This document shows positions 1-63,281 of a stretch of DNA of 64,000 nt, piece by piece (the stretch's first letter is position 1; each line of letters begins with the position of its first letter). The stretch is from positions 224,001-288,000 of the forward strand of contig CAWHHI010000020.1 in the NCBI GenBank assembly GCA_963829055.1. Direction: 5' to 3'. Both the position numbers and the translations under genes were made by a program. This stretch comes from an uncultured Gemmatimonadaceae bacterium (GTDB lineage Bacteria; Gemmatimonadota; Gemmatimonadetes; Gemmatimonadales; Gemmatimonadaceae). The notes below the pieces were generated by a model. It was not told where the DNA came from. It saw nothing but the letters and a program-made list of their open reading frames with translations, and did no database searches.

Positions 1-245
1 ACCGCGCTCATGAGGGACACGCTTATCCAGTACCCGAACAGCATGAGCACGCTGTAGCCAGCCGTTAGGCGCGCGATCTGCTGATCGAGCTGCGTGGCCG
101 GTCCGAGAATGACGAGCTGCAGCACGAGGATCGGCGCGTAGCAGACGGCCGACATGAGCAGATAGGTCAGCGGGTCGCGCCGGTAGAGTTGGAACGCGGC
201 GTCGACGATTTCGCTCGCCGACCGTGGCCGAAGGGGCAGAGACAC
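1..245 (-). CDS. Membrane protein, N-terminal part; runs off the left edge
   Basis: Hand translation from GTG at 245: MSLPLRPRSASEIVDAAFQLYRRDPLTYLLMSAVCYAPILVLQLVIL..., open to position 1 with hydrophobic helices. Not in the ORF track because it is truncated. Confidence 0.7.
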   Translation of the reverse strand, partial: MSLPLRPRSASEIVDAAFQLYRRDPLTYLLMSAVCYAPILVLQLVILGPATQLDQQIARLTAGYSVLMLFGYWISVSLMSA

Positions 246-503
246 AGGTGGGGACCGGGAATGGGGAACCGGGAACGGGCACTGCCCCGCAAGATGTTGT
301 GTCGTTGGAGGGTCTACCAGCGGCTTGGCCACGATATCCGGGTGGCGTTCGGCCTTGGGGCCCTGATCGCCCCCGGATCGGCACCCGTTATGGCAACTTG
401 CCCCTAACCTCTTCCCCCGGTCCGTTTTCGGCGTGTATCCTAGGTCGGACGGGAAACCCCTCGCGCTGGACGACCGACGTTGGCTCGCTCGGAGGATGCC
501 TAA

Positions 504-818
504 ATGGAAGCTGCCATCTCCGCATGGCTGCAGGACCTCGCGATTCGCGCGTTCGGAATCTCGCTGTTCGTCATGCTGGCGATCGACGGCGCGTTCGCCG
601 TGATCCTCCTCGCGACGCGCGACCGGGCCATCGTGAACCGCTGGACGTCGCGCGTGCTGGCCGTCAATCTCGTGCTCGCTGGCACAGGCATCGGCGTGCC
701 CGTCCTTGCCCTCAGCACGAGACTCGCCGTGCGCATGATCGCGCCGCTCATTCCGAAGCTCCCGGGCGTCATGATCATCGACGACGACGCTCCGGAGGGC
801 GTAGGAAGGAGGCCGTAG
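504..818 (+). CDS. Hypothetical small membrane protein (104 aa)
   Basis: GGAGG upstream of the ATG; two hydrophobic segments; GC-rich third positions. Confidence 0.7.
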   Translation: MEAAISAWLQDLAIRAFGISLFVMLAIDGAFAVILLATRDRAIVNRWTSRVLAVNLVLAGTGIGVPVLALSTRLAVRMIAPLIPKLPGVMIIDDDAPEGVGRRP

Positions 819-888
819 GAGCGGCCGGGAAGGAGGCCTTAGGAAGGAGGAGGGCGGATAGCGGAAGGCGGATGGCGGAGAAGAGGCG

Positions 889-994
889 TGTCATCCCGAG
901 CGCCAGCGACGAGGGATCTTCTCGAACGTTCTCGTGGCCGAGACTGGCCACGACGTACATCACAGGAGATCCCTCGCTGCCGCTCGGGATGACA
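889..994. repeat. REP-like palindromic element, family A copy 1
   Basis: TGTCATCCCGAG...GAGGGATCT / AGATCCCTC...CTCGGGATGACA inverted arms with an inner GTGGCC-n-GGCCAC hairpin; lies between convergent genes. Confidence 0.9.
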
Positions 995-1055
995 TGGCTC
1001 CTTCCTACGGCCTCCTTCCTCCGCCCTGCCTCCTACGGCCCGCGCCCTGCGGGCG

Positions 1056-1745
1056 CTACACCCCGAAGCAGTAGAACAGCCCCGCCCCGCCCGTCGCGAC
1101 GAGGTCCGCCTGACTGCACGACCGGCTCATGTGCGCGGCGTTCCAGGACGAGTTGCCGCCTCCCGACCGATCGTGATGCCCGAGCATGGCCGACCCGGCC
1201 GAGTCGCTCGTCCAGTTGTTGCACGTCGTGCCTGCGGGCGTGCCTAACAACACCCGGCCGAACGAGTCGGAGCCGGTGAGAATGTCGTGCTGGTTCGGCG
1301 TGTCGCCGCGACCGTTGACGGGCAATCCCTTCTCGTTGAGCGCGAACTCCTTGTTGATGGAGTTGCGGTCGCGCTGGATGTCACCGTGGAGATCGGCGAC
1401 GTTCCAGGCGATGAGCGCGCCCTTGGCATTGTACCACGGCCCGTTGCCGATGCGATCGCGGGCATTGATCGGCGGCTGACCCGCGGCCGCGGCGGCGCTC
1501 AGGTACGCGTGCCAGGTGCGGCTCCCTGCACCAGCCGCGCGCGCGAGGGTCAGGCAGTGCTCGTCCGCCCCGGCGAGTCCGCCGAGGTTCGCGCCGGCGC
1601 CTTTGCCGACGCTGGTGACGAAGAAACCCATCGGCTGCTGCGGTTGCTGCGGCTGGGCGGGCGTGGCCTGAGCCGCGACGGTCGAGGCGGCGAGGAGCAG
1701 GGCTGCAGGTAGCGCGTGGGTTAGCGATCTATTCAGCGTATTCAT
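1056..1745 (-). CDS. Secreted lectin/endostatin-like protein
   Basis: Signal peptide, then FFVTS..GANLGGLAGADEHC..WHAYLS..ARDRIGNGPW..TCNNWTS..WNAAH..C..FYCF, the pattern of bacterial endostatin-like lectins. Confidence 0.75.
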   Translation of the reverse strand: MNTLNRSLTHALPAALLLAASTVAAQATPAQPQQPQQPMGFFVTSVGKGAGANLGGLAGADEHCLTLARAAGAGSRTWHAYLSAAAAAGQPPINARDRIGNGPWYNAKGALIAWNVADLHGDIQRDRNSINKEFALNEKGLPVNGRGDTPNQHDILTGSDSFGRVLLGTPAGTTCNNWTSDSAGSAMLGHHDRSGGGNSSWNAAHMSRSCSQADLVATGGAGLFYCFGV

Positions 1746-1812
1746 GAAAAGGGCTCCGTCCGGTTTGAACCGATAGACTCGCTATGTAGGGAGCCATTCG
1801 GAATAGGACGGG

Positions 1813-1828: not shown

Positions 1829-2042
1829 GGCGTCCACGGATAACACGCTCGGGGCAAGCGCGCGGCGCGCGGCAGGTGCGACGCCGTTAGGCAGCTTTGG
1901 CTACGGTCGCACGGGGGAGGCACCCGGCTTCGCTCGCTCGAAATGACACGCTCCACCTCCACTGGCGCTCGAGCGCCACGAGCAACAGGCTATGCTCGAC
2001 GTCGACCCAGCCGCGATCCGCACCGCTGCGCTCCCATTCTGG

Positions 2043-4667
2043 ATGACCCCGTTTCTCCTTGCTGCCCTGGCGCTCACCGCGCGAATCTCGACGCTTCAGG
2101 CCGTCGCCCAGGACTCGACGGCGCCGACCGCGGTCGCCGTCCGCGCGCGCGGTGGTGTGCGCATTGATGGACGCCTGGACGAAGAGGCATGGAAAGCGGC
2201 GACCCCGGTCACGTCGTTCACGCAGCGAGACCCCGATGCCGGCCGACCCGCAACCGAGCGGACAGAGGTCCGCATCATCTATGACGCCGCCGCGATCTAC
2301 ATCGGCGCGCGGCTCTTCGATTCGACGGGCGCCGTGCGCAGTCGATTGGGACGGCGAGATAGCGAGCTGTCCGGTTCGGATTGGTTCTTCGTGACGCTGG
2401 ATAGCTACCACGACCACCTCACGGCGTATCGCTTCGGCGTCAATCCGAGTGGCGTTAGGCGTGACGAGAAGGTGAGTACCGAGACGGACGAAGACGAGTC
2501 GTGGGACCCTATCTGGGAGGCCGCTGCGACACGCGACGCCGCGGGTTGGATGGCGGAGCTCCGCATTCCACTCAGCCAGCTTCGCTTTCGCGACGTTGAC
2601 GAGCAGACGTGGGGCATTCAGCTCGTCCGCCAGATCGCACGCAACAATGAAGAGAGCTGGTTCGCGTTCGTCCCGAAACGCGAGCGCGCCGTTGTGGGTC
2701 GCTACGGACATCTCACCGGAATGCGCGGTCTCATGCCGCGCGGCCGCCTCGAGCTGCTCCCATACGCCGTTAGCCGCGTCCGCTACGATACGCCTGCGCA
2801 GAGCGAGGACGTTCCGTTCGTGAACCCGTTCCGCGACGGCTCGGAGCAGACGGCATTGTTAGGTCTCGACCTCAAGTATCGATTGGCGAGCAACGTAACG
2901 CTGGACGCGACGGTGAATCCGGATTTCGGTCAGGTTGAAGTCGATCCCGCCGTTGTGAACCTCACTGCGTTCGAGACGCGCTTCGAGGAGCGGCGACCGT
3001 TCTTCATCGAAGGCTCCGAGATCTTCGGCTTCAATGGGACGGAACTGTTCTATTCGCGCCGCATCGGAGCACCACCTCCAGGCCGTCCGCCGTCAGGCGC
3101 GGTCTACGACAACATGCCCGAGAACGTGACGATTCTCTCGGCAGCGAAGCTGTCGGGGAAGGCGCGTGGGTGGTCACTCGCGGTGCTCGACGCCGTGACG
3201 GGCCGCGAGCACGCGTCCTATGTCGGCGAGAATGGCGACCGAGGCCAAGCGGAGGTTGCGCCACTCGCGAACTACTTCGTTGGACGAGCGCGTCGCGAGC
3301 TGCACGAAGGCAACACAGTGGTCGGCGCCATGGCGACGGCCGTGCACCGGGACCTCAGCGACAGTGCGCTCACCTCTCGCGTGCGCTCGCGGGCATTCTC
3401 AGGAGGAATCGATTTCTCACACGACTGGGACGAGCGCAAATGGTCGCTGGAAGGCTTCGCCGCCGGCTCGCACATCACCGGCTCGAACGCTGTGATCACC
3501 GCTGCCCAGCGGTCGTCGGCGCGCTACTATCAACGCCCCGATGCGTCGCGCCTAACGCTCGACTCGTCCGCCACGACGCTCGCGGGCTTCGCCAGCCGTC
3601 TCGAGCTGCGGCGAGCCGCGGGCGAACACTGGCGTGGAGACGCGACTGCCGCGACGGTGAGTCCCGGGTTCGAGACGAACGACATCGGCTTCCAGGCGCG
3701 CGCCGACCAGCACTCCGCGACCGCGACGGTGCAGTACGTCCAGGAGGAACCGGGACGGATCCTGCGTGAGTGGAGCCTCGAGGGCGGTCCGCGCGGCACC
3801 TGGAACTGGGATGGCAATCGCATCGGGACGCGGCTCAACTTCGAGGGTGATGCGCAACTGCTGAATTACTGGAGTGGCGATTTCGAGGTGAACCGCGAGT
3901 TCGCCGTCCTCGATGACAGGCTGACACGTGGCGGTCCGCTCGTGCGCTCACCGGCCCGAACGAACGTGTCGGTCAGCATCGAGAGCGACCCGCGGCGGGT
4001 GTGGACGCTCGACATGGGCGTCGACGGCTGGTGGGGGCCGGTGAGCCGCAGTGCATCGGTCGACGTCGAGGTCGGGGTCAAGCCGGCGCCCAACTGGAAC
4101 GTGTCCATCGCCCCGGAGTGGTCACGCGACCGCGCCAGCAACCAATACGTGACGTCGGTCGCCAATGCGCTGGCTCCCGCGACGTTCGGCCGCCGGTACG
4201 TGTTCGCCGACCTCGATCAGACGGAACTCTCCATCGCGACCCACATCAACGTGACATTCACGCCGTCACTGTCACTCGAGGTATTCGCTCGGCCATTCAT
4301 CGGGAGCGGCACGTTCGGCGCCTTGAAGGAACTGACTCAACCGCGCGCGCTTTCCTTCGCTCGGTATGACAGCGTGGGGACCGTCACGCGCAACGGCAGC
4401 GAGGTCATCGTCGACCCGGACGGCGACGGGCCGGCAGATGAATTCGGGGTGGACGACGAGACGTTCACAACGCGGTCGCTCCGCGGGAACGCGGTGCTGC
4501 GGTGGGAGTGGCGGCCGGGCTCGACGCTGTTTCTCGTCTGGCAGCAGCAGCGCGAGGTGGAGGACGCGAGCGGCGACCTGCGGCTCCGCCGCGACCTCCG
4601 TCGACTCGGTCGGGCGAGCCCGGACAACGTGTTCGTCATCAAGGCGACCTGGTGGCTCAATCCATAG
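2043..4667 (+). CDS. CBM9-like plus DUF5916 protein (probable outer-membrane beta-barrel)
   Basis: Signal peptide; IDGRLDEEAW, TEVRIIYD and WMAELRIPLSQLRF (CBM9-like); LDATVNPDFGQVEVD..FEERRPFFIEG..LFYSRRIG (DUF5916); C-terminal KATWWLNP. Alternative start at 1992. Confidence 0.88.
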   Translation: MTPFLLAALALTARISTLQAVAQDSTAPTAVAVRARGGVRIDGRLDEEAWKAATPVTSFTQRDPDAGRPATERTEVRIIYDAAAIYIGARLFDSTGAVRSRLGRRDSELSGSDWFFVTLDSYHDHLTAYRFGVNPSGVRRDEKVSTETDEDESWDPIWEAAATRDAAGWMAELRIPLSQLRFRDVDEQTWGIQLVRQIARNNEESWFAFVPKRERAVVGRYGHLTGMRGLMPRGRLELLPYAVSRVRYDTPAQSEDVPFVNPFRDGSEQTALLGLDLKYRLASNVTLDATVNPDFGQVEVDPAVVNLTAFETRFEERRPFFIEGSEIFGFNGTELFYSRRIGAPPPGRPPSGAVYDNMPENVTILSAAKLSGKARGWSLAVLDAVTGREHASYVGENGDRGQAEVAPLANYFVGRARRELHEGNTVVGAMATAVHRDLSDSALTSRVRSRAFSGGIDFSHDWDERKWSLEGFAAGSHITGSNAVITAAQRSSARYYQRPDASRLTLDSSATTLAGFASRLELRRAAGEHWRGDATAATVSPGFETNDIGFQARADQHSATATVQYVQEEPGRILREWSLEGGPRGTWNWDGNRIGTRLNFEGDAQLLNYWSGDFEVNREFAVLDDRLTRGGPLVRSPARTNVSVSIESDPRRVWTLDMGVDGWWGPVSRSASVDVEVGVKPAPNWNVSIAPEWSRDRASNQYVTSVANALAPATFGRRYVFADLDQTELSIATHINVTFTPSLSLEVFARPFIGSGTFGALKELTQPRALSFARYDSVGTVTRNGSEVIVDPDGDGPADEFGVDDETFTTRSLRGNAVLRWEWRPGSTLFLVWQQQREVEDASGDLRLRRDLRRLGRASPDNVFVIKATWWLNP

Positions 4668-4674: not shown

Positions 4675-4871
4675 GTCATTCCGAGCGGAGCCGCGAAGCG
4701 GCGCAGTCGAGGAGCTATGTCATTCCGAGCGAACGAAGTGAGTCGAGGAATCGTTGCTGTCCGAGTAGAGATGCCGCTCTACCGGGACGCGAAGGATTCC
4801 TCGATGCGCCCAGAGGCACCCGCGGCCTGCGGCCTCCGCTCGGAATGACACGGGCGGGCGCTCGGAATGAC
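4675..4871. repeat. REP-like palindromic element, family B copy 1
   Basis: GTCATTCCGAGCG (x2)..GAGGAATC..GTAGAG-n-CTCTAC..GATTCCTC..CGCTCGGAATGAC (x2). Confidence 0.9.
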
Positions 4872-4901: not shown

Positions 4902-6306
4902 ATGCTCGCACCACTCGTCGTCGCCGCCGCGCTGCTCACCCAGCAACCGAATCAGGGTGTCCGCCAGTTCGTCTCCGTCTCCGATTCCGTCGTCGCACTG
5001 ACGAACGTCCGGGTCATCGACGGCACCGGCGCCGCCCCGCGCGCCGGTCAGACCGTCGTCATGAAGGGCGGCGTCATCCAATCGATCGGCGACGCGGCCT
5101 CGGCGAAGATCCCCGCTGGCGCCCGCACCATGGACCTCGCGGGACGTACCGTCATGCCCGGCTACGTGATGCTCCACGAGCATCTGTTCTATCCATCGGG
5201 CGGCGGCGCGATCTACAACGAGCAGGGGTACAGCTTCCCGCGGCTCTACCTCGCCGGTGGCGTCACGACCATGCGCACCGCCGGCAACATGTCCGGGTAC
5301 GCCGACATCGGGATCAAGAAGGCGATCGACGAAGGCACAATGCTCGGGCCGACGGTCGACGTCACCGCGCCCTACCTCGAGGGCCCTGGCCTCCCGATTC
5401 CGCAGGTGAAAGCGCTCCGCGACGCCGCCGACGCACGAAAGATGGTGAACTACTGGGCCGATGAGGGCGCGACGTCGTTCAAGGCCTACATGCACATCAC
5501 GCGCGCGGAGCTTGGCGCCGCGGCGCAGGAGGCGCACAAGCGGAATCTCAAGATCACCGGGCACCTGTGCTCGGTGACGTTCAAGGAAGCCGCGGCGTTA
5601 GGCATCGACGACCTCGAGCACGGCTTCGTCGTCGCCAGCGACTTCGTCCCCGACAAGAAGCCTGACGAGTGCCCGGCCGGCAACGCCGTGCAGCGCTCCA
5701 TCGCGGCACTCGACGTGAACGGCGCCGGCGCCCGCGATCTCATCGCCGAGCTCGTGCGCCGGAAGGTCGCGATCACGTCGACGCTCACGATCTTCGAGAC
5801 GTTCGCGGCATCGAATGCCTAACGCGCCGACGAAAGCGCTCGACGCGCTGCTTCCCGAGGCACGCCGGCAGTATGAGCAACGCCGAGCGGCGATCGCGCA
5901 GTCGCCGGACACGACGTGGAACGTGCTCGTGAGGAAAGAGATGCAGCTGGAGAAGATGTTCGCGGACGCTGGCGGGCTGCTCGTCGTCGGCACGGACCCG
6001 ACGGGCTTCGGCGGCGTCGTCGCGGGCTACTCGAACCAGCGCGCGCTCGAGCTGCTGGTGCAGGCGGGCTTCACGCCGGTCGAGGCGATCAAGGTCGCGA
6101 CGCTCAACGGCGCGAAATACCTCGGCCGCGACGCGAAGATCGGGACGCTCGCTGCTGGAAAGCAGGCGGACCTGGTGGTCGTTCGGGGCGACCCGTCCAC
6201 GAAGATCGACGACGTCGAGAACGTCGAGATCGTGTTCAAGGGCGGGGTCGGCTACGACTCGGCCAAGATCTTCGAGTCCGTGAAGGGACGAGTCGGGTTG
6301 CACTAG
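4902..6306 (+). CDS. Secreted amidohydrolase (imidazolonepropionase-like); one frameshift near 5815
   Basis: MPGYVMLHEH metal motif, GVTTMRTAG, GH, LEHG; second ORF continues with GTD and GTLAAGKQADLVVV. ORFs 4845-5822 and 5815-6306 join into one protein. Confidence 0.88.
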
Positions 6307-6644: not shown

Positions 6645-7814
6645 GTGACCCCACGCCTCGTCCGCGTGGCGGCTGCCGTCGTCGTCGCCGCCTTTTTCTT
6701 CGTTTCCTCGCAGGCCACCGCCCAGGATGATCGTGGCGGCAATGGCCAGGATGATCGCCGCAGCCTCGACCTCGGCGTGAGTGGCGTCGGCATCAGCATT
6801 GGCGACTCGCGGCGCTGGACCGGCCTTCGCCTCAACTTTCGAGACTCCCGACTCGAGGAAGCGAACGGCATCAACGCGACCATCTGGGGTCCGTACAAGG
6901 GGGGCGCCGGGCGAGTGAACGGTCTTGCCCTCGGGCTCCCGGCTACCGGAGCGAGCAGCCTCTCCGGGCTCGGCGTCGGGATCTTTGGCTTCGGCGTCGA
7001 GCGTTCGTTCACCGGCATCGGCGTCGCCGGCGTCGGGATGGGCGGCGGTGGTGACATGAAAGGTGTCATGGTCGCCGGGATTGGCATGGGCGGGGGCGGT
7101 AACATCAGCGGGATCAGCATCGCCGGTCTCGGCATGGGCGGCGGCGGCGACCTCAATGGCATCGCCATCGGTGGCCTCGGCGCAGGGATGGGAGGCAACC
7201 TGACGGGGGTCTTCGTCGCCGGGCTCGGCGCGGGTGGCGGCGGCAACGTCCGAGGAATTGGCGTCGGCGGCCTGGGACTCGGCGCCGGCGGCAGCCTAAC
7301 GGGCATCGCGGTCGGCGGCCTCGGCGTAGGCGCTGGCGGCAGCGCGAAAGGATTGCTCGTGGGTGGGCTCGGCGCCGGAGTGGGCGGCGACCTGACCGGC
7401 ATCGGCCTCGGAGGTCTTGGCATTGGCGCTGGTGGCGACATCACCGGCCTCGTGATCGGCGGACTCGGTGCCGGATTCGGCGGAACGCTACGCGGAGTCG
7501 GCATCGGCGGCGTCGGTGTCGGTGGCTCGCGCATTCGGGGGATCGCGATCGGCGGTGTGGGCGTGGGCGGTGAGGACCTCAAGGGCGGCTTCGCCACGAT
7601 TGGCGTTCTCAAGGTCGAGAACAACGGCCACTTTCAGGGCGTCGGCGTCGCGGGCTTCAGCCAGATCAAAGGACAGCAGAGCGGGTTGACGATTGGGCTC
7701 GTGAACTACGCGTGGGACCTGCGCGGCGTGCAGGTCGGCGTGATCAACATCGCGCGGAGCAATCCGAAAGCGACGCGCGTGCTGCCGCTGTTCAACGCGG
7801 ATTTCTCGAAATGA
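6645..7814 (+). CDS. Secreted glycine-rich 16-aa repeat protein (LA_2272-like surface repeat)
   Basis: GTG start after GGGAG; signal peptide; about 12 repeats such as GGGDLNGIAIGGLGAG; C-terminal GLTIGLVNYA..GVQVGVIN..VLPLFNADF. Confidence 0.75.
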   Translation: MTPRLVRVAAAVVVAAFFFVSSQATAQDDRGGNGQDDRRSLDLGVSGVGISIGDSRRWTGLRLNFRDSRLEEANGINATIWGPYKGGAGRVNGLALGLPATGASSLSGLGVGIFGFGVERSFTGIGVAGVGMGGGGDMKGVMVAGIGMGGGGNISGISIAGLGMGGGGDLNGIAIGGLGAGMGGNLTGVFVAGLGAGGGGNVRGIGVGGLGLGAGGSLTGIAVGGLGVGAGGSAKGLLVGGLGAGVGGDLTGIGLGGLGIGAGGDITGLVIGGLGAGFGGTLRGVGIGGVGVGGSRIRGIAIGGVGVGGEDLKGGFATIGVLKVENNGHFQGVGVAGFSQIKGQQSGLTIGLVNYAWDLRGVQVGVINIARSNPKATRVLPLFNADFSK

Positions 7815-7944: not shown

Positions 7945-9593
7945 ATGCGCGCTTTCGCCGGAGCCTCAGCACTCCTTCTCAGCGCGGCGCTGAGCCTTCC
8001 AGCTCAGCAGCCTAACGACTCGGTTCGGGCGCGCGTCGATCGCGTCTTCGCCCAGTGGAGCTCCCGAGAGGGGCCGGGCTGCTCCGCAGCGGCAAGCCAG
8101 GATGGGAAGACGATCTACGAGGCCGGGTACGGCTCCGCCAATCTCGAGGCGGACGTCCCCATCACGCCGAGCTCGATCTTCCACGCCGCGTCGGTCTCGA
8201 AGCAGTTCACGGCGATGGCGGTCATGCTCCTCGTGCGGGAAGGCAAGCTGTCGCTCGATGCCGACGTGCACACGTACATCCCCGAGCTCCCCGACTATCG
8301 CGGGCAGCGCATCACGCTCCGCCACCTGCTCACGCACACGAGCGGCCTCCGCGATCAGTGGGACCTGCTGGCGATCGCGCGCGGGCGCTTCGAGGAGAAC
8401 CGCATCACGCAGGACGACGTCCTCGACATCGTGACGCGACAGAAGGCGCTCAACTTCCCACCCGGCACCGAATACCTGTACAGCAACAGCGGCTATACGC
8501 TCGCCGCGATCATCGTCAGCCGAGTCGCGGGGATGCCGATGCGGCAGTTCGCGGAGGAGCGGATCTTCAAGCCGTTAGGCATGACGCGCACGCACTTTCA
8601 CGACGACTACACGATGGTCGTGAAGGGTCGCACATCCGCCTACGAACGCAGGCGGGATGGACAGTGGCATGTCAGCATCCCGAACTTCGACACGTACGGC
8701 GCGACGAGTCTCTTCACGACGGTCGGTGATCTTCTGAAATGGCAGGAGAACTTCCGACGCCCGGTCGTAGGTGACACCGCCCTGCTCCGCGCCATGCAGA
8801 CCAACGCGATTCTCACCAACGGCGATACGGTCGGGTATGGTCTGGGCCTAACGCTTGGTGGCGCGCCCGGCATGCGGATGATTGGTCACAACGGCGCTGA
8901 CGCCGGCTATCGCGCAATGACGGGGCGATACCCGGACCAGGGATTCGCGATCTCTGTCCTCTGCAACGCGGCGTCAGCGGATCCATCGGGGCTCGCGACG
9001 AAAGCGAGTGAGATCTTTCTGGGCAAAGGTCTGCCGGAGCTGCCCAGCCCGGTCGCACTGCAGCACCGGCCACCGCCGGAGCAGCTCGCGCGATACACGG
9101 GACTCTACGTCCATCCGGTCACCGGCGATGTCACGTACGTGTCGCTCAAGGACCGCGAGCTCATCGTCGGGCGGACGAGCGGACCGGCACTGGTGCCCGT
9201 CGGCGATAGTCGCTTCTGGCTGCCTGGGCAGCGGATCGAATGGACGTTTCAGCCTAACGGGAGCGTCGTCCAGACGTACCGCAGACGGCTGTCGCAACAT
9301 CCGGTGACGCTCGTGCGACACGACGCGGTCAGACCGTCGGCAGCGGAGCTGGCCCAGTATGCCGGTGACTACACGAGCCCGGAGCTCGGCGCGACCTACA
9401 CGGTTTCGGTCGCCGACACGGCCCTGAGCTTTCGCACGGGTGTCACTGACGCATGGAAGGCAACTCCCACCTACACGATGCCTTCGACGGAGAGGTGCAA
9501 GTCGAGTTCACGCGCGACCCTGGCGGACGTCTCACCGGGCTGCAGATGAGCACGGGTCGCGTGAGGAGAGTCTGGTTCGAGAAGGTGAGGTAG
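7945..9593 (+). CDS. Serine hydrolase, beta-lactamase/AmpC-like family, with C-terminal extension; frameshift near 9475
   Basis: SxxK (ASVSKQF), LLTHTSG, YSN and HNG motifs; the shifted frame gives DAFDGEVQVEFTRD..GRVRRVWFEKVR with TAG at 9591-9593. Confidence 0.88.
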
Positions 9594-53468: not shown

Positions 53469-54478
53469 GATGCCGTCATTTCACCGCGTCGCGTGTGGCT
53501 CGTTTGCTTCGTGTGTTTCATCCGGTGCCACTCGTACGCCGCGAGCTTCGCGTGCGTGTCGCCCGCCCCGAACGCATAGCCAGCCATCTGTCCGATGCCG
53601 TCGAGCACGAGCCCGATCGTCAGCGTCGGGACGACGCGGGCGAGGAACGGCGCCCCGCGTCCGAGCCGTCGCGCGTGACCGAGCGTGCGCGCGAGCCTAA
53701 CGAGCGGAATGGCCGGCGAGGCGGCGACGAACGCCAGGCGGCGGACGAGCGACCACTCCGCCGAGCGCGTGTCGGCGAACGCGCGTCCGTTGAGGAACAT
53801 CACCGGCAGCCACGACGACCAGAACCCGAAGTTCGTGTGGGCCGTGTGCGCGGCGGGCTCGAGGAGCAGGCGATGTCCCTTGCCGCGCAGATCCCACATG
53901 AGGACGGTCTCCGCCTCCATCAAGGTCTCGAGCGCTGTCCCGTACTCGATGAGGACCGCACGCTTGTAGCTGCTGTTGTGACCGGGCAGGAACTCCGTGT
54001 CCTGCCGCACGATAGGCGCAGCCCACGGTCCGTACCCGATGAGAAAATCGGCCCAGCTGACGATCGAGTCGGGATTCGCGTTATGCATGGCCGGCCCCAC
54101 CGCCGCGACCTCTTCGCGATGGGCGGCGAGCAATGCCTCGGCCCATGTGGTCGACGGAAAGCAGTGCTCTTCCCCGAACGCGACGATGGGCGCGCTCGCG
54201 GCGCGGATCCCAGCAGCGCGTCCCGGCCCCGTTGGCGTGAGCGACGCCATCGGAACGACGCGCACGCCGGCCAGCGGCGCGACGAGATCGTCGTCAACGT
54301 CGATGCGCGCTGCTTCGGGCGCGACGATCACGAGCTCGATACGCTCGCGCACCGTCTGCCGCGTCAGGCACTTGACCGTGCGGCGGATGGTCTCGAACGA
54401 GTCCGGCGTGATGAGTACGACCGACAGCGCTGGCGTCGCGTCGCTCGAAGCGGGGGACGGTTCAGGCTCCTGAGACAT
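53465..54478 (-). CDS. Glycosyltransferase family 2-like protein
   Basis: LSVVLIT..CLTRQT..IELVIV, GIRAASAPIVAFGEEHC, PGHNSSYKR; GEEH replaces the usual DxD. Confidence 0.8.
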   Translation of the reverse strand: MSQEPEPSPASSDATPALSVVLITPDSFETIRRTVKCLTRQTVRERIELVIVAPEAARIDVDDDLVAPLAGVRVVPMASLTPTGPGRAAGIRAASAPIVAFGEEHCFPSTTWAEALLAAHREEVAAVGPAMHNANPDSIVSWADFLIGYGPWAAPIVRQDTEFLPGHNSSYKRAVLIEYGTALETLMEAETVLMWDLRGKGHRLLLEPAAHTAHTNFGFWSSWLPVMFLNGRAFADTRSAEWSLVRRLAFVAASPAIPLVRLARTLGHARRLGRGAPFLARVVPTLTIGLVLDGIGQMAGYAFGAGDTHAKLAAYEWHRMKHTKQTSHTRRGEMTAS

Positions 54479-55560
54479 GCACCTGTGCTCGAGAAAGCAG
54501 TGGCGCCGATGCCGATTCTGCTATTGGCGCGTCGACAGCGACGAGTCGGCCTGACCGCGCCGATTGCTCGGCGGCTTCGACGACGGCGATCGTGCGGAGA
54601 CCGTCCGTCAGGCTCGGGGTCGCCGGCGTTCGGTCGGTGATGGCCTGGACGAACGCTGACATCGCCGATGGAAATGACGGGTCGTGCATGGGTGAGCGCA
54701 GCTTGCGGATGGCGTAAGGCAAGGCGCGCATCTCGCCAGCGAAGCGCGTCGCCGCCACACCGAGCGTACCGCTGGCGCTCGCCGGTGTCACTTCGACGCG
54801 GAGAGAGCGATAGCGATCGATGGTGAGGCGGCCAGCCGAACCGTGGAGCTCGATGCGGTCGTCGTCGATGGTGCCGAGAGAGCACATCATCTGCTCCGAC
54901 ACACCCGCTCGTTAGGCCGAGTTGTAGTGCCGCTGTGTCGTGCTCGGATTGGATGGAGCGAACGTCGGCGCTCACGTGTGCGATCTCCGTATCGAGCAGA
55001 AAGCGAACGAGGTCGATGTGATGCACGGCAAGATCGAGCAGCACGCCGCCACCGCTCTCGCGCCGCTGCTTCCACGCAGGGGTCGAGCGTTTCGGGGTCG
55101 CGAACACCGTGCGGATGCTCACCGGTGTGCCTATCGCGCCACTCGCGATTGCTGCGCGGGCTTCGACAACGAGGGGGTTGTAGCGATAGTTGAATCCCAT
55201 CATCGCCGTGAGCCCGCCTTGCCGCCACGCGTCGAGGACGCGAGTGGCGTCGGCGACACTCGTGGCAAGTGGCTTCTCGACGTAGACGTGTTTTCCTCGT
55301 TCGAGCGCCGCTACGGCGGCATCCGCATGGAGCATCGGTGGGAGCGCGATGATGACCGCGTCCACGTCCGACATCTCGAGCACGGCGCCGTAGTCGGCGA
55401 CGGCGCGGGCTTCGGGGGCGAGGGGTCGGGCGGCGTCGAGGTTCGCTGGCGATGTGTCCGCGAGGGCGATCACGCGCCCCCCGCGGATGCGAGAGAGCGA
55501 GCGAAGGTGCGCGGCGCGCGAGATGGCGCCACAACCGAGAATACCGAGCCGGACCGACAT
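54462..55560 (-). CDS. Gfo/Idh/MocA oxidoreductase; frameshift near 54900
   Basis: LGILGCGAI, DAVIIALP, GKHVYVEKPL, GFNYRY, GGGVLLDLAVHHIDL. Confidence 0.92.
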
Positions 55561-55685
55561 GTCGTAAGCTAGCAAGGGACCTTGTCATCCGCCTGTGCGT
55601 GGCCGCACATTGGGGCAGGAGTCGACGGGCAGCCGGAGGCTCGATTACCCGTCGCGTCTGGCGTTAGGCCCTGGCCCTCTTTCGA

Positions 55686-57726: not shown

Positions 57727-60639
57727 TACCGCCTCGGCTCCGGGTGGACCGTGATCGGCTGCGTGAGGGTCTTGCCGTTCGCGGTCAGACGAACCGTGTA
57801 GTTGCCGACGATTGGCGGCGCCTCGGCCGCACCCCGCCCGCCGCCACCACCGCCGAATCCGCCAGTCGGCGTGAGGTTCCACGCGACGCGGTGCATGCCC
57901 GCCGCGCTCGACATCGGCTCGGGCGCCTGACGCCACAGGGGCGACGTGTTGGGAATGCCGCCTGGGCGTCCGCCGCCGAATCCACGGCCTGCCGGCTGTT
58001 GCTGGCGGGACGGGTCGGTGGAGTAGGTCGCCACGACCGCGTTGGCCGAGTCGAGGATCTCCACGGTCACAGGACCGCTGGCGGGCGATCGGAGGTAGTA
58101 GTCGATGTACGCGGCGTTAGGCGGGTTCGGCGCCTGCGGCTCGTCCTTCTGGAGCGGCGTGCCGTTGTCGCCACCCTGCTGGACGTTGATCGCATCCGAC
58201 GGCTTGAACAGGTAGACGTCCGCCTTCGCGATCTCGTCGCTCGCCTGACGCAGCACCGCGATGTCGTCGATGACCCAGAAGCCGCGCCCGTGCGTCGCGA
58301 CGATGAGGTCGTTCTCGTAGATCTCGAAGTCGCGCACGGACGTGACTGGGAGATTGAGCTGCAGCGGTTGCCAGCTGTCGCCATCGTCGAACGACAGGAA
58401 TGCGCCGCGCTCCGTTCCCGCGAACAGCAGTCCCTTTCGCTTGGGATCTTCCTTGACCGTGTGCACGTAGACGCCAGCCGGCAGACCGTTCGTGATCTTC
58501 TGCCAGCTCTTCCCCAGGTCGCGCGTGCGGTAGATGTACGGGTCGAAGTCCTGGAGCTGATGGCGGTCGACGCTCGCGTACGCCGTGTTCGCGTCGAAGT
58601 GGGACGCCTCCATCATCGTAACACGGCTCCATGCCGTGACGGCGTTAGGCGTCACGTTCTGCCACGTCGCGCCGTCATCAGGCGAGACCTGAATCAGGCC
58701 GTCGTCGGTGCCGATCCAGAGCAGCGGCGCGCGAAGCGGTGACGGCGAGATGGTGTAGATGACGCCGCGTTTTCCGTTGCGGTCCGTGTGCGCGGCGGCT
58801 GCGGCGTCGAGGTTCGACGGGACGCCGGGGTCGGGCCGCGTCAGGTCGTCGCTGATCCGCGTCCACGTCTGTGCGCCGTCCGTCGTCTTGAACAGGAACT
58901 GATTCGCGTAGTAGAGCGCGTGCGGGTCCGCCATCGAGAACACGAGCGGCTGCGTCCAGTCGTTGCGCGCCTGCTCGGGCGCCTGCGGCGCAGTCGTGCC
59001 GCGAACCGCGGTGTTCGTCTCGAGGTTCCAGCGCGTGCCGGTGCCGCCGAAGATGATGCCGGGATTGAGCGGATCGCCCGCGGTCATGCCACTCTCGCCA
59101 CCCGCACCGATCGGCTCCCAGTCTCGCATCGAGATCTCGGCGAACTTGCCGCGCGACCGCACGGCGACGGCGCCCGAGTCCTGCTGCGCGCCCGTCACCC
59201 AGTACGGGAAGCGGCGATCGACCGAGAGATGATAGATCTGCGCCGTCGGCTGATTCAGCCACGAGCTCCACGTCACGTCGTGCGGGTCGTCCGCACGAGC
59301 GTTGCGCGTGATGATCGCGCCCTGATCGCTGGCGACGATCATCGTGTTCGTGTCGTCCGGCGAGATCCACGCCTGGTGGTAGTCGTCGCCACCGGGCGAT
59401 CCGCGCAGCGCAACCCATGTCTTGCCGCCGTCGTGCGTGCGGCTGACCGAGACGTTAGGCACGTAGACCGTGTCGGCGTCCTTCGGGTCGACGACGAGCT
59501 TCTCGAAATACCAGCCGCGCCCCCAGAGCGCGGGATCGCCCGACATCTTCGTCCACGTCGCGCCGGCGTCGTCGGAGCGGAAGAATCCACCCTGCCCCGG
59601 CGGCGCCTGCGCTCCACCTCGCCCGCCGCCTGCGCCGGCTGGCGGCGCGGCCGGCGCGCGGCGCGTTAGGATCGGGAACGAGACAATCGACCACCGCGTA
59701 CAGGCGCCGCGGATTGCTCGGCGCGACGGCGATGCCGCTCCGCCCGATCCCCTCCTTCGGCAGGCCGGTGGTGAGTTGCGTCCACGTCGTACCGCCATCG
59801 GTGCTCTTGAAGATGCCGCCGCCCGGCCCGTTCGTCGGGGCGTACGTGTACCACGGCGGACGGCGCGTATTCCACAGACACGCGTACACGACGCGCGAGT
59901 TCGTCGGATCGATCACGACGTCCACGGCGCCGACGTCGTTGTTCTTGAACAACACCTTGCGCCACGTCTTGCCGCCGTCGGTCGACTTGAAGACGCCGCG
60001 GTCGGCGTTAGGTGCGTAGAGGTGCCCGATCGCGGCGACGAACACGATGTTCGGGTTCTTCGGGTCGACGGCGATCTTGCCGATGTGCTGCGTCTCGTCG
60101 AGTCCGAGATGCGTCCAGTGCTTGCCGGCATCGGTGGACTTGTAGACGCCGTTGCCGTACCCGACCGAATCACGAAGCGTCGACTCGCCGCTTCCGACGT
60201 AGATGGTGTCCGGGGCCGACGGCGCGACCGCAAGCGCGCCGATGGACGCGACGGGCTGCCCGTCGAAGATCGGCGTCCACACTCGGCCTGCGTCGATGGA
60301 CTTCCAGACGCCGCCGTTCACGGACCCGAAGTAGAACTCGTTAGGCCTCCCCGGGACACCGCTCACGGCGTCGACACGACCACCGCGGAAGGGGCCGAGC
60401 ATGCGCCACCGGAGGCCGGAGAACAGCGTGGCCATCTCGTCGGATGACGGACCGGTCGACCCGCCGACTCGGGTTCCGGATGGAACGAGCCCGCGCGCAA
60501 CGGACGGTCCGAACATCGAGACGGCGCCGCCGATCTGGGCGGCGCGAACGAGGAATCCGCGCCGCGACACTTCGCTGTCTGAAGACAGGATGGCGTCGGA
60601 TGTGGTTTCGGAATCCGTCTCATCGCGCTCGTCGCTCAC
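57726..60639 (-). CDS. Tat-exported BNR/Asp-box (VPS10/sialidase-like) glycosyl hydrolase; frameshift near 59670
   Basis: SRRGFL Tat motif; WRMLGPFRGGR; many SxDGGxTW Asp-boxes; GGDDYH; DLIVATHGRGFW. Confidence 0.9.
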
Positions 60640-60688
60640 GTTCCCTCCAACATAGTGGTATTGCTAGACAGCTTTGGGAAAAAAGAAG

Positions 60689-60880
60689 AACAACAAACAG
60701 CAACAGCAGGACAGGATGGCCAGGATTGGCAGGATTACAGGATGACTGCCACACCTCGAGCGGCGACTCGGCGGGGCCTAACGAATGAAGGAACACATCT
60801 CGGAGCCTCTGTTCAATCCTGTCCATCCTGCCAATCCTGTCATGTAGTTGCCGTTGCAGTTGCAGTTGCCGTCATCCTGC
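60689..60880. repeat. Family D gene-less element 2
   Basis: AACAGC repeats, GACAGGATGGCCAGGATTGGCAGGATT, same core and right arm as 35158-35412, then a GTTGC(A/C) tract. Confidence 0.85.
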
Positions 60881-60894
60881 CCTGCAGTTGTCGA

Positions 60895-62140
60895 CTACTT
60901 CTTGAGCGTCGCGCCCGTGAGCTGCGCGATGGCGCTCAGGGTCGTCTGCGCCGCGTTCATGCCGAGCAGAAAGTCCTTGTCGCTGTACGTCGTGAACACG
61001 TCGGTCGGCTGGTGCCAGTTCGGATCCCAACCAGCGCCGATCTCGCGACCACGCTCGTTCTCCCGCAGACTGATCGACGGGATCAGGTCCTGGAATGGCG
61101 CGCTGTCCGTGTTCGTCATGTGCGGACCCACCTGCGCCGGATAGTCCGTCGCGTACTTCTCGTTCGCGGAGTGGAGGATCCAGGCGAGCTTCTGCGACGC
61201 CCTCGGACATCTTCGAGTTCGACTGGAACTCGATGTTCACGTCCGCCTCCGGGCGCTGCTCCTTGCTCACCGTGCCGTCAGCGCGGGGCATGCCGTGATC
61301 CCACATCATCATGTCGTGCTGGATCATGCCGAGCCACTTGGGCTCCGGATATTTCTTCGATCCCGCCGGCGATTCCTTGCCCTGCAGCGCCTGGCGTTGT
61401 TCGACGTACGCGCGCGCGCCGTTGAGGCCCGTCTCCTCGTTGTTCCAGAGGATGAAGCGGATCGAGCGGTCGGTCTGCACATCCGGGCTGCTGAAGACCC
61501 GCGCGAGCTCCATCACGATCGCCGTTCCGGAGCCGTCGTCGTTCGCGGCCTCGCCCCAGCCGTGACCGTCCATGTGGCCACCGACGATGTACATCTCCTC
61601 CGGGTGCGTCGTGCCGACCTTCGTGCAGTACACCTCCTGGCGCTCTCCGGGCGTCGTCGGCTCCATGTTGATCGCCCGGATCTGCGGGTCGGGCTGCGCC
61701 AGCGAATCGGTGTTCACGCCAGTGCGAGCACGATTGCCGCGGAGACGTCCGCCGCCCGACGCCTGGGTGCTCCGAGCCGCCGCCGCGCGCCGTGCCGCAA
61801 TGGCCGCACTGTCCTGCGGCTGTGGTGGGCGCTGTCCGCCCGCCGCGGGCTGATAGTCGTACTTGATGCGCTCGGTGTTCGTGCAGCCGTAGCTCTTGAG
61901 CTGCGCCTCGATCCAGTCGACCGCGTCCCGGTTGCGCTTCGTGCCCTGCCGGCGGTCGCCGAACTGCGTGAGGCCCTTCACCGTCGCCTTGTATTTCGCC
62001 AGCTCGAGGCGGCTGACCATGGCGCGTATGGGGTCATTCGCGGTATCGGCCGGCGCATTGGCGCCGCCCTGCGCGAAGACGGGTGTGCCGAGGATGGCGA
62101 CCAACGACCAGGCCGCAACGATCGGGGATTTCACTCGCAT
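60895..62140 (-). CDS. Secreted M28 family peptidase; frameshift near 61200
   Basis: IVGGHMDG, AANDDGSG, WNNEETGLNG, MIQHDMM, NTDSAPF, PNWHQPTD. Confidence 0.88.
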
Positions 62141-62326
62141 GAATTTCCTGTTAGGCAACGGGTGAACGGGTGAGCGGGAGATGATAGCGCACGTGAAGCG
62201 CTTCGTCATGCTGGCGACAGCTACGCCGGTCTAGGTTGAGCAAAAAGACCGGCGAACTCAGCTCAAGTACGCTGTCTCGAGGCGGCACGTTGGGGCAGAG
62301 TCCGGCGCAGACGGGGAGGAAATGGC

Positions 62327-62478
62327 TGTCATTCCGAGCGGAGGCCGCAGGCCGCAGTCGAGGAATCCTACGCGTGCCGGTAGAGGGGCCCCTCTACCCG
62401 GACACCGACGATTCCTCATGCGCCCACCTGCTGGGCACCCGCGCTCGCTCGCCGAATGACAACCGCGCTCGGAATGAC
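62327..62478. repeat. Family B copy 9
   Basis: Arms plus GTAGAGGGGCCCCTCTAC; overlaps the next gene's start. Confidence 0.9.
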
Positions 62479-63281
62479 GCTCATCCTGTCGGCGTGCGCG
62501 CACGGCGACCAGCCAACCCACGTCGCGCGCGACCCCTGGCTCCGCGCCCAGCCGCTCTTCCTTTATTCAGCCGCCGACACGACGCGACCACCGCGCGCCG
62601 TGATCTTCTTCTTCGGGAACGACATCGGATTCTGGCAGCCACACCGCCAACTCGCCGGCTCCCTCGCACAATCGCAGTACGCCGTCGCCGGCTTCGACAT
62701 GCGCTCACTCCTGCGAACACTCCCGGAGCGCCACCCCGCGCGAGACAGCGCCTTCGCCCTGGCCATCCGTCCGCTCATCGCGCGGGCGCGACACGAGCTC
62801 GGTGGCGACTCCGTTCCACTCATCATCGCCGGCCACTCGATCGGAGCAGAGCTTGCGATCTGGACTGCGGCCCACGCGCGACCCGCAGGTACGACCGCGG
62901 TGCTCGCCATGTCGCCGGGCTCACGCAGTCATCTCCAGAGTATCGCTGAGCGACATCATGAACGGACCGGAGCCTACCGGACCAGATAGCTACACGGTCG
63001 CCGACGCCGTCGCCGCTGTCCCATGCGACGAGCGCGTCGCTATCGTCCGCGGCACCCGCGACCGGTACGTCAAAGCCGACTCGGCGCTCATTGCCGCGGG
63101 CGGCGACCGCGTCCGACGATTCCTCGTTCCGCTCGCGGGCCATTCACTGAAGCGGCTGGCGATCGCGGGCTTCGAGACGAAGCGGGCGCTCGACTGGCTG
63201 CTCGCGACTCCGCTGACGGTCGTTAGGCAGGCGGCGGGCGATTCGCTGTCGCGCGCTCCGGGTCCTCCGCCTCCGCGGTGA
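62456..63281 (+). CDS. AcvB/VirJ-like alpha/beta hydrolase lipoprotein; frameshift near 62940
   Basis: Lipobox LSAC; IFFFGNDIGFW, VAGFD, IAGHSIGAE (GxSxG), PLAGHS. Confidence 0.65.

What the first reader, a model, noticed from the sequence alone, without database searches (positions are those of the whole stretch)
63..63228. Highly iterated non-palindromic octamer GCCTAACG/CGTTAGGC embedded in genes across the whole window
Seen: by hand I count about 47 exact GCCTAACG/CGTTAGGC and about 70 CCTAAC/GTTAGG cores, roughly one per 0.9 kb (e.g. 63, 1885, 2453, 3550, 5596, 7294, 8010, 8573, 10084, 12383, 18527, 26081, 26201, 36815, 44108, 49393, 58643, 63221). They occur on both strands regardless of gene direction and in several reading frames, forcing codons otherwise rare here: CGC-CTA-ACG at 3550, GCG-TTA-GGC at 5596, GTT-AGG at 2453, CCT-AAC at 8010. 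A large share of the window's TAA/TTA trinucleotides appear to sit in this motif. A rough base-composition estimate (assuming ~68% GC) expects only 2-3 octamers, before TA avoidance. Established: comparable genome-wide words are cyanobacterial HIP1 (palindromic), Neisseria/Haemophilus uptake sequences, and Chi/KOPS (strand-polarised). Inference: this one is neither palindromic nor locally polarised, so it may be an undescribed uptake tag, nucleoid-protein site or methylation/repair-driven motif. I know of no description of it but cannot search the literature.
Basis: partly seen in the sequence, partly recalled or inferred. Interest (0 to 1): 0.85.

Follow-up and report, generated by a model that had tools for sequence, protein, structure and literature searches.

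The report
Genome-wide self-tag word in Gemmatimonadaceae
A soil bacterium and many of its relatives carry thousands of copies of one eight-letter DNA word running through ordinary genes, much like the uptake tags by which a few bacteria recognise their own DNA, and the word has the same spelling as the core recombination site of integron gene cassettes.

Summary
The window holds 47 exact GCCTAACG/CGTTAGGC (dinucleotide shuffles give 1.15) and 70 hexamer cores. The genome is a 7.78 Mb Gemmatimonadaceae assembly with 5004 copies (0.64 per kb), 17- to 49-fold over Markov orders 0-3 and 22-fold over amino-acid-preserving codon shuffles. Flanks are random and strands are balanced. All four open frames are used, and 46% of TTA codons lie in the word. 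Spacing is more even than chance. Three DNA blocks that look foreign have none.

In 151 family genomes, 36 (20 of 75 genera) are at least 3-fold enriched and 94 are depleted. One genus favours a variant, GCCAAACG. Within the genus 49% of sites are conserved against 24% for control words. Between genera, positions are not shared.

The best reading (about 0.45) is a DUS/USS-like self tag spread by molecular drive. Its reader is unknown.

Relatives carry cassette arrays with it, and this genome has an integrase 15 kb from the window. Less than 1% of copies are attC sites, and 10 of 36 enriched genomes show no integrase.

Polarity, Vsr repair and artefact were rejected. Four earlier notes of this scan describe the same word in other genomes.

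The parts
63..70 (-). octamer copy, in gene (-) running off the window start; sense frame xGC CTA ACG
1885..1892 (-). octamer copy, outside my crude gene calls
2453..2460 (-). octamer copy in DUF5916 gene 1992-4664 (+); read as xxC GTT AGG C
3550..3557 (+). octamer copy in DUF5916 gene; xGC CTA ACG
5596..5603 (-). octamer copy in amidohydrolase-like gene 4845-5819 (+); xCG TTA GGC; kept in G001 and G002
5817..5824 (+). octamer copy at the overlap of genes 4845-5819 and 5815-6303; absent in G001 and G002
7294..7301 (+). octamer copy in gene 6540-7811 (+); xGC CTA ACG; kept in G005 only
8010..8017 (+). octamer copy in beta-lactamase-family gene 7903-9546 (+); G CCT AAC G; kept in 3 of 3 same-genus genomes
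8573..8580 (-). octamer copy in the same gene; xCG TTA GGC; kept in 3 of 3
8846..8853 (+). octamer copy in the same gene; xGC CTA ACG; absent in 3 of 3
9252..9259 (+). octamer copy in the same gene; G CCT AAC G; kept in 3 of 3
10084..10091 (+). octamer copy in DUF763 gene 9770-10846 (+); G CCT AAC G; kept in 2 of 2
12383..12390 (+). octamer copy in TPR gene 11391-12596 (-); antisense, read as C GTT AGG C
12978..12985 (+). octamer copy in Ser/Thr kinase gene 12493-13836 (-); the three relatives have GCCTGACG here
15127..15134 (+). octamer copy in asparagine synthase gene 14486-16402 (-); kept in 3 of 4
18527..18534 (+). octamer copy in gene 17831-19201 (-); xCG TTA GGC
18833..18840 (+). octamer copy in gene 17831-19201 (-); xCG TTA GGC
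19120..19127 (-). octamer copy in gene 17831-19201 (-); G CCT AAC G
21202..21209 (-). octamer copy outside gene calls; 53 bases from the next copy; no hairpin between them
21255..21262 (+). octamer copy outside gene calls
26081..26088 (+). octamer copy in LVIVD/Big_2 gene 25043-27304 (-); xCG TTA GGC
26201..26208 (+). octamer copy in the same gene; xCG TTA GGC
26333..26340 (-). octamer copy in the same gene; xGC CTA ACG
26810..26817 (+). octamer copy in the same gene; xCG TTA GGC
27874..27881 (+). octamer copy outside gene calls
32301..32308 (-). octamer copy outside gene calls
35240..35247 (+). octamer copy outside gene calls
36815..36822 (+). octamer copy in MacB/FtsX permease gene 36143-38821 (-); xCG TTA GGC
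38204..38211 (+). octamer copy in the same permease gene; xCG TTA GGC
40064..40071 (+). octamer copy in kinase gene 39395-41581 (-); xCG TTA GGC
40943..40950 (+). octamer copy in kinase gene 39395-41581 (-); xCG TTA GGC
44108..44115 (+). octamer copy in UPF0182 gene 43089-45047 (+); G CCT AAC G
46263..46270 (-). octamer copy in DUF4397 gene 46231-46992 (-); G CCT AAC G
48147..48154 (+). octamer copy in gene 48096-48650 (-); xCG TTA GGC
49393..49400 (+). octamer copy in histidine kinase gene 48550-49656 (-); xCG TTA GGC
50437..50444 (-). octamer copy in Reg_prop gene 49613-51643 (-); G CCT AAC G
51016..51023 (-). octamer copy in the same gene; G CCT AAC G
53121..53128 (+). octamer copy in polysaccharide flippase gene 52077-53468 (-); xCG TTA GGC
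53695..53702 (+). octamer copy in glycosyltransferase gene 53468-54478 (-); C GTT AGG C
54910..54917 (-). octamer copy outside gene calls
55662..55669 (-). octamer copy outside gene calls
58115..58122 (-). octamer copy in BNR/sortilin-like gene 57729-59798 (-); G CCT AAC G
58643..58650 (-). octamer copy in the same gene; G CCT AAC G
59453..59460 (-). octamer copy in the same gene; G CCT AAC G
60339..60346 (-). octamer copy outside gene calls
60776..60783 (+). octamer copy outside gene calls
63221..63228 (-). octamer copy at the edge of gene 63226-63789 (-)

Best explanation
GCCTAACG/CGTTAGGC is a lineage-specific 'self tag' written at the DNA level through the chromosomes of many Gemmatimonadaceae. 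Some protein that reads this exact 8-mer in either orientation gives DNA fragments carrying it a transmission advantage between cells of the same kind. The most likely route is preferential uptake during natural transformation, as with the DUS of Neisseriaceae and the USS of Pasteurellaceae. Better survival of the fragment after entry is a less likely route. Homologous recombination then copies tag-bearing alleles into recipients. Over time the word accumulates wherever proteins tolerate it, becomes evenly spaced, stays out of foreign DNA, and turns over site by site. Shown here: the word's excess, its exact length, strand balance, frame usage, spacing, absence from foreign blocks, phyletic spread, a variant spelling in one genus, and conservation together with turnover. 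Inferred, not shown: that a reader exists, that it acts in uptake, and that recombination drives the spread.
For: Excess: 5004 copies, O/E 17-49 at Markov orders 0-3, and the most over-represented octamer at orders 2 and 3. Codon shuffles give 142 +/- 12 against 3140 observed.

Exact 8-mer: 70% of 7103 CCTAAC cores carry both flanking G, and flanks are at background.

Strands: 2457 against 2547. Adjacent copies share a strand in 0.519 of cases, and the split is 55:45 across a GC-skew switch on C16.

Frames: all four stop-free frames are used (1204/861/580/465). 1209 of 2647 TTA codons lie in the word.

Spacing: gaps under 200 bases number 215 against 611 expected, and gaps of 400-1600 number 2593 against 2086. 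The depletion of short gaps is the same for direct, convergent and divergent pairs.

Density: 0.64 per kb here and 1.25 per kb in G014. This is the range of H. influenzae, A. pleuropneumoniae and N. meningitidis uptake sequences (1,471, 765 and 1,892 per genome; outline of PMC2817400).

Foreign DNA: three blocks of 50, 47 and 32 kb hold no copy. They carry second, 47-59% identical copies of FtsK, DAHP synthase and FolD and a partial TrpB match, whose other copies lie on C16. Low-GC bins are also poorer. This matches the report that DUS are absent from recently acquired genes (abstract of PMC2397512).

Phyletic spread: at least 3-fold over the reversed-word control in 36 of 151 family genomes (20 of 75 genera), and below 0.5-fold in 94 (hand tally).

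Variant spelling: G010 has 925 GCCAAACG against 110 control, besides 605 GCCTAACG.

Conservation with turnover: against G005 (79.8% identity), 41 of 83 sites are shared in each direction, compared with 24-25% for control 8-mers. Against other genera the figures are 4/33, 4/11, 2/15 and 2/51, with a baseline of 10%.

Protein cost: amino-acid identity at lineage-specific sites is 72-77%, against 77.7% overall, as reported for USS (abstract of PMC2817400).

Machinery: ComEC, a secretin and three PilT are encoded.
Against: No experiment shows transformation in this phylum, and my literature search found none. The competence genes I tested do not distinguish rich from poor genomes: ComEC is in 31 of 31 relatives, and a PilQ-like secretin is in 149 of 151, all below the curated cut-off. 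The ComEA model TIGR00426 found nothing in this 86%-complete genome. No candidate receptor was identified. Close inverted pairs that could serve as terminators, common for neisserial DUS, are rare here: 6 convergent pairs under 60 bases. The most used frame carries the rarest codon, TTA, whereas USS frames follow preferred codons (abstract of PMC2817400). All four frames here need a rare codon, so this is weak evidence. The identity with the integron core is not explained by this reading alone. The same patterns would also arise from selection on an in-place binding site.
Confidence: 0.45

Rival explanations
1. The word is a binding site used in place. An abundant DNA-binding protein (nucleoid organisation, repair or segregation) needs a site about every 1-2 kb, and selection keeps the sites.
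For: Spacing is even and short gaps are depleted whatever the orientation. Density is uniform, at 12.9 per 20 kb with a variance/mean of 1.35. Sites are conserved twice as often as control words within the genus. The 8-mer is sharply defined, with tolerated variants only at the outer positions.
Against: Half of the sites differ between species of one genus, and positions are not shared between genera. 94 of 151 family members do without the word, including one of three genomes of genus g55: 66 copies against 3896 and 4141. No known nucleoid protein needs an exact 8-mer at this density (recalled, not tested).
Confidence: 0.2
2. The word is read by the integron integrase or a related tyrosine recombinase. 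The solitary copies would be landing pads (attG-like) for gene cassettes, or decoys that soak up the integrase.
For: The word contains the canonical core GTTRRRY / RYYYAAC (passages of PMC3053210). In word-poor relatives G021 and G019 almost all copies sit in cassette arrays as the attC core. This genome has an integrase over the TIGR02249 cut-off at C20:208041-208958, 15 kb from the window, and about 23-27 attC sites. The commonest enriched variant genome-wide, CGTTAGGT (827 copies), is also the commonest variant core in this genome's own attC sites. Integrases can insert cassettes outside att sites; this rests on a title seen in a search term and on recall, and the paper was not read.
Against: Over 99% of copies have no attC partner or hairpin. 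An integrase match occurs in 26 of 36 enriched genomes and in 72 of 115 others, so there is no association. Ten enriched genomes have none, including G064 (97% complete, 3249 copies), G097 (94%, 4115) and G107 (99%, 2136) (hand tally). The G010 variant GCCAAACG departs from RYYYAAC, and G010 shows no integrase. Other spellings allowed by RYYYAAC (GTCTAACG and GCTTAACG, 24 copies each) are depleted. Of the 4 indels found between relatives, one begins beside a copy of the word but its end does not lie at the crossover point, one has a copy inside it and two have none. MAGs often lose integron regions, so the absences are soft.
Confidence: 0.1
3. The word is a Chi-like signal for a helicase-nuclease (AddAB/AdnAB type). 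It would protect linear self DNA and stimulate recombination.
For: Two PDDEXK_1 nuclease-domain matches lie 3.6 kb apart on C15, the layout of a two-subunit helicase-nuclease. Chi-type signals also mark self DNA and could spread by the same drive (inference).
Against: There is almost no replication-strand bias (55:45). Apparent same-strand runs in other genera were an artefact of the listing. RecC was not found. An excess of 17- to 49-fold over the Markov models is far above what I recall for known Chi sites; this comparison was not tested here.
Confidence: 0.1
4. The word is a by-product of a mutation or repair bias, for example a methyltransferase plus very-short-patch repair, as proposed for palindromic cyanobacterial repeats.
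For: Single-base variants at inner positions are depleted, with O/E 0.2-0.5. G-to-A changes turn GCCTGACG into the word between relatives.
Against: Vsr (PF03852) gave no match in G000, G001, G004 or the three g9 genomes. It matched 6 of 36 enriched genomes against 22 of 115 others. Depletion is not specific to T variants. One repaired position cannot create an exact 8-mer or even spacing. Methyltransferases were not surveyed.
Confidence: 0.07

Closest known systems
DNA uptake sequences: DUS of Neisseriaceae and USS of Pasteurellaceae
   Same: A short non-palindromic word at roughly one per kb on both strands. It lies inside genes in several frames with little cost to proteins. It is absent from foreign DNA, shared by related genera with variant spellings, conserved above background yet turning over, and regularly spaced (PMC2397512 abstract and passages; PMC2817400 abstract).
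   Different: The phylum is Gemmatimonadota, where no transformation is on record in my search. The word is only 8 letters with no flanking consensus. Terminator-like inverted pairs are rare. No receptor was found. Uptake has not been tested.
Integron attC / attI core site (GTTRRRY, inverse core RYYYAAC)
   Same: The spelling is identical: GTTAGGC / GCCTAAC. Real attC sites with this core occur in the same order and in this genome.
   Different: The 5004 copies are solitary and have no second box, hairpin or neighbouring cassette. They lie inside conserved genes, and their abundance does not follow the presence of an integrase.
Chi sites and KOPS/architecture-imparting words
   Same: Over-represented octamer-sized words read by DNA-processing machines.
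   Different: Those words are strand-polarised with replication (recalled). This one is not. Its excess is also much larger.
HIP1-type highly iterated palindromes of cyanobacteria
   Same: A genome-wide octamer at about one per kb inside genes, in a phylum-level clade, with an unknown cause.
   Different: This word is not.

Membership tests
DUS/USS uptake sequences | Hundreds to thousands of copies of one short word, far above chance | tested here: met
   5004 copies; O/E 17-49; 22-fold over codon shuffles
DUS/USS uptake sequences | Both orientations about equal, with no replication polarity | tested here: met
   2457 against 2547; adjacent copies on the same strand 0.519; mixed strands in four other genomes
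DUS/USS uptake sequences | Missing from recently acquired or foreign DNA | tested here: met
   0 copies in about 128 kb of three blocks that hold divergent second copies of housekeeping genes
DUS/USS uptake sequences | Shared across related genera, with variant spellings | tested here: met
   36 of 151 genomes in 20 of 75 genera; G010 has 925 GCCAAACG against 110 control
DUS/USS uptake sequences | Competence machinery encoded | tested here: inconclusive
   ComEC, a secretin and PilT are present and ComEA was not found. The same genes occur in word-poor relatives.
DUS/USS uptake sequences | DNA carrying the word is taken up preferentially; a cognate receptor exists | not testable with these tools
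   Needs uptake or transformation assays
DUS/USS uptake sequences | Frequent inverted pairs acting as terminators (neisserial DUS) | tested here: not met
   Only 6 convergent pairs under 60 bases among 4984 neighbouring pairs
Integron attC site | Inverse core and core paired 57-141 bases apart around an imperfect palindrome | tested here: not met
   Flanks are random. A profile of this genome's attC sites finds about 23 sites at E<1e-5 and about 27 at E<0.01, none in the window. The covariance model found 16 matches, but only 150 of 8088 candidates were scored.
Integron attC site | Core spelling GTTRRRY / RYYYAAC | tested here: met
   GTTAGGC / GCCTAAC
Chi / KOPS | Strand bias with the direction of replication | tested here: not met
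   55:45 on C16 across a GC-skew switch
HIP1-type palindromes | Palindromic word | tested here: not met
   The word differs from its reverse complement
REP/MITE-type interspersed repeat | Conserved sequence beyond the core | tested here: not met
   Positions -12 to -1 and +8 to +19 are at background apart from codon periodicity

The most novel reading that the evidence does not exclude
The word is an uptake (self-recognition) sequence whose spelling was set by integrons. Competent cells would then preferentially harvest gene cassettes released by relatives, because every cassette in this order's integrons carries the word. The same bias would, by drive, have filled the chromosome with solitary copies. 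That would tie natural transformation to integron cassette traffic by a shared DNA word. Transformation has been shown to feed cassette recruitment in V. cholerae (abstract of PMC12614218).
Probability: 0.12. Interest if true: 0.9.

Novelty: new variant of a known kind. Interest (0 to 1): 0.72.

Why it matters
Uptake-type self tags are known only from two proteobacterial families. A third case in Gemmatimonadota, a widespread soil phylum with few cultures, would imply frequent DNA exchange biased towards the same species in soil. It would also give a simple genomic marker for that exchange. The identity with the integron core site raises a testable link between transformation and cassette capture.

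Tried and rejected
Strand polarity. The listing showed runs of 11-27 same-strand copies in G064, G121, G161 and G088. The fetched DNA shows mixed strands (24+/36-, 31/27, 13/8, 23/27), so the truncated listing puts forward matches first. This was rejected.

All copies being attC sites. This was rejected. My first hairpin scan gave 179 hits but was too permissive for G+C-rich DNA, so I dropped it.

Integrase as a necessary reader: no association.

Vsr repair: no association.

ComEC and PilQ-like secretin as discriminators: both are universal.

Cassette insertion at solitary copies. Only 4 indels were found between relatives in the DNA I had. One starts beside a copy, but homology runs about 10 bases past it. 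Not conclusive.

Tandem repeats in the G021 array: none. Rfam on the arrays gave only a tRNA over its cut-off and a weak tmRNA fragment.

Other hyper-abundant octamers in 20 further Gemmatimonadota loci of 5-21 kb: none seen. Samples that small are weak evidence.

Literature. The exact word gave 0 papers. GTTAGGC/GCCTAAC with integron gave 1 paper. Gemmatimonadetes with integron and attC gave 2 unrelated papers. Gemmatimonadetes with natural transformation or uptake sequence gave no paper joining them.

Read laying. Bins without cover in run X1, and the 30 differences that were not shown, prove nothing either way.

Full report
Observation. The 100 dinucleotide-preserving shuffles give a mean of 1.15 and at most 5. 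There are 70 hexamer cores, and 47 of the window's 146 TAA/TTA trinucleotides lie in the word.

The window is C20:224001-288000 of a 7.78 Mb, 20-contig, 66.6% G+C assembly. The assembly is 86% complete with 4% contamination. A DUF763 protein of the window is closest to MAGs labelled Gemmatimonas sp. (84%) and Gemmatimonadaceae (76-79%).

The word in the whole genome. There are 5004 copies, at 0.48-0.80 per kb on every contig. Observed over expected is 17, 38, 49 and 19 at Markov orders 0 to 3. Among octamers seen at least 200 times it ranks first at orders 2 and 3.

The signal is exactly eight letters long. Of 7103 CCTAAC cores, 79% have G before and 90% have G after, and the flanks are at background apart from codon periodicity.

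I used a crude frame-plot gene finder of my own, which called 6042 genes covering 70% of the genome. With it, the word is read as xCG TTA GGC 1204 times, G CCT AAC G 861 times, xGC CTA ACG 580 times and C GTT AGG C 465 times. 1894 copies lie outside the calls. Shuffling synonymous codons within each gene gives 142 +/- 12 copies against 3140 observed. This null is conservative, because it keeps the codon usage that the word itself inflates. 1209 of 2647 TTA codons lie in the word. So this is a DNA-level signal, not a peptide or codon effect.

Strand and spacing. Neighbouring copies share a strand in 2589 of 4984 cases. Across a clear GC-skew and gene-orientation switch on C16 the split is 111:158 and 209:187. 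Gaps shorter than 200 bases number 215 against 611 expected from a Poisson process, and gaps of 400-1600 bases number 2593 against 2086. The shortage of short gaps is alike for direct, convergent and divergent pairs. Counts per 20 kb average 12.9 with a variance/mean of 1.35.

Word-free blocks. Three blocks hold no copy: C6:5440-55037, C6:591808-623330 and C11:0-46789. They encode ordinary metabolic and housekeeping proteins. Their FtsK, DAHP synthase and FolD are second copies, 47-59% identical to copies on C16, and TrpB has partial matches there. These blocks are therefore foreign islands or chimeric joins. Either way they act as an internal control: DNA of similar G+C in the same assembly lacks the word.

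Not an artefact. The stretch 7900-10900 occurs in 20 runs of 16 studies. Contigs of four runs from four studies cover it, and none of the 40 differences listed falls in its five copies, though 30 further differences were not shown.

Relatives. All 7 genomes of the genus have 2501-5112 copies. Most of the other 24 relatives have 3-65, which is below the reversed-word control of 42-433.

In a family sample of 151 genomes from 75 genera I tallied the table by hand. 36 genomes, in 20 genera, have at least 3 times the control. 16 have 1-3 times, 5 have 0.5-1 times and 94 have less than half. These tallies include four genomes flagged unpublished (G013, G050, G051, G147), none of them enriched. Genus g55 is split: 3896 and 4141 copies against 66.

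A 99 kb sample of G014 gives the same 8-mer at 1.25 per kb with O/E 49. G010 carries 605 copies of the word and 925 of the variant GCCAAACG (control 110). That variant is not enriched in G005 or G007. A single-gene tree leaves the word-rich lineages unresolved beside a well-supported word-poor clade.

Turnover. I compared 302 kb of G005 (same genus) with this genome; 106 kb aligned at 79.8% identity. 41 of 83 sites are shared in each direction, against 24-25% for control 8-mers. Where the word is missing, the other genome mostly has a one- or two-letter variant: ACCTAACG 13 times, GCCTGACG 8, GCCGAGCG 8. In the window itself, 19 of 32 site-by-genome comparisons keep the word. Against other genera the shares are 4/33, 4/11, 2/15 and 2/51, with a baseline of 10%. 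Amino-acid identity at lineage-specific sites is 72-77%, equal to the 77.7% background. Sites are thus maintained above chance, yet they are gained and lost in each lineage at little cost to proteins.

The integron link. Word-poor relatives showed dense same-strand arrays. Reading them shows classical cassette arrays. They are repeats of 88-136 bases every 400-1300 bases, mostly about 0.6 kb. Each is bounded by GCCTAAC and GTTAGGC around an imperfect palindrome. That is the RYYYAAC inverse core and GTTRRRY core of attC sites (passages of PMC3053210).

This genome has an integrase just over the TIGR02249 cut-off (265.7 against 265 bits) at C20:208041-208958, 15 kb left of the window. A profile of its own attC sites finds about 23 sites at E<1e-5 and about 27 at E<0.01. 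All lie on one strand and most lie on C20:97-208 kb. None is in the window. Cassette reading frames start 10-50 bases from the box that I had first taken for the inverse core. So CGTTAGGC is the crossover core, and the integrase points the same way as the cassettes.

Less than 1% of copies belong to attC sites. An integrase match is found in 26 of 36 enriched genomes and 72 of 115 others. Ten enriched genomes have none, including nearly complete ones (hand tally; MAGs can lose such regions). The G010 variant also breaks the consensus. The chance that a random hyper-abundant octamer contains this heptamer is 16 in 65,536. Even allowing for about 100 motifs I would have recognised, a coincidence has odds of a few per cent. 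The link is therefore unexplained rather than dismissed.

Mechanism. The pattern has eight parts: exact word, both strands, about one per kb, even spacing, use of all open frames without cost to proteins, absence from foreign DNA, spread across the family with a variant spelling, and conservation with turnover. These match what is described for DUS and USS (abstract and passages of PMC2397512; abstract of PMC2817400). I therefore favour a self tag spread by biased uptake plus recombination, at about 0.45.

That reading has three weaknesses. Transformation is unknown in this group. The competence genes I tested are universal in the family, and ComEA was not found. No reader is known.

The rivals are an in-place binding site (0.2), an integrase-related role (0.1), a Chi-like signal (0.1) and a repair bias (0.07). 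For the Chi-like signal, RecC was not found and two PDDEXK domains lie on C15. For the repair bias, Vsr is missing from this genus and unassociated with the word.

Earlier notes of this scan describe the same word in four other Gemmatimonadaceae genomes, and two mention the integron spelling. I found both points independently before looking. The notes agree with mine but are not independent evidence.

Noticed in passing
G000:C20:97000-209000 (15 kb and more to the left of the window start): A chromosomal integron. The integrase gene lies at C20:208041-208958 (-). About 20 attC sites, all on one strand, are spread loosely over 110 kb. Cassette frames point the same way as the integrase, which is an unusual layout. 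An inverted pair of the core sits at C20:207951-207977. A second integrase fragment lies at C4:2862-3170.
   Followed up: partly
window 9594-9730; also near 4675-4864, 6332-6485, 17635-17796, 22233-22363, 57562-57719: Intergenic hairpin repeats bounded by GTCATTCCGAGCG ... CGCTCGGAATGAC. The DNA fold is -47.8 kcal/mol. There are about 200 partial copies in the genome. Depth in metagenome contigs is 350-1720 against about 10 for the flanks, so the element is shared by many soil organisms.
   Followed up: partly
window 43089-45900: The UPF0182 gene appears broken into three overlapping frames (43089-45050, 44668-45609, 45338-45874). This is either a frameshift or an assembly error.
   Followed up: no
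G000:C6:5440-55037, C6:591808-623330, C11:1-46789: Word-free blocks with second, divergent copies of FtsK, DAHP synthase and FolD and a partial TrpB match. The first block starts beside a D5_N primase-like gene. Chorismate synthase there is split into two frames. These are either foreign islands or chimeric joins in the assembly.
   Followed up: partly
window 10861-13760: The TPR and Ser/Thr kinase genes form a 2.9 kb stretch that is missing in G002, where the DUF763 and asparagine synthase genes are neighbours. G001 and G005 have the stretch. The left end lies about 10 bases past a CGTTAGGT whose TAG is the DUF763 stop codon.
   Followed up: partly
G010 (whole genome): A second hyper-abundant word, GCCAAACG (925 copies against 110 control), occurs beside 605 GCCTAACG. 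This is a possible variant spelling of the tag.
   Followed up: partly
L104:2577-2660 (G021:C80): A tRNA gene (45.8 bits) lies between two attC sites of a cassette array.
   Followed up: no
output: When a genome has many pattern matches, the truncated list of places shows forward-strand matches first, which mimics strand polarity. The counts in the table are sound.
   Followed up: yes
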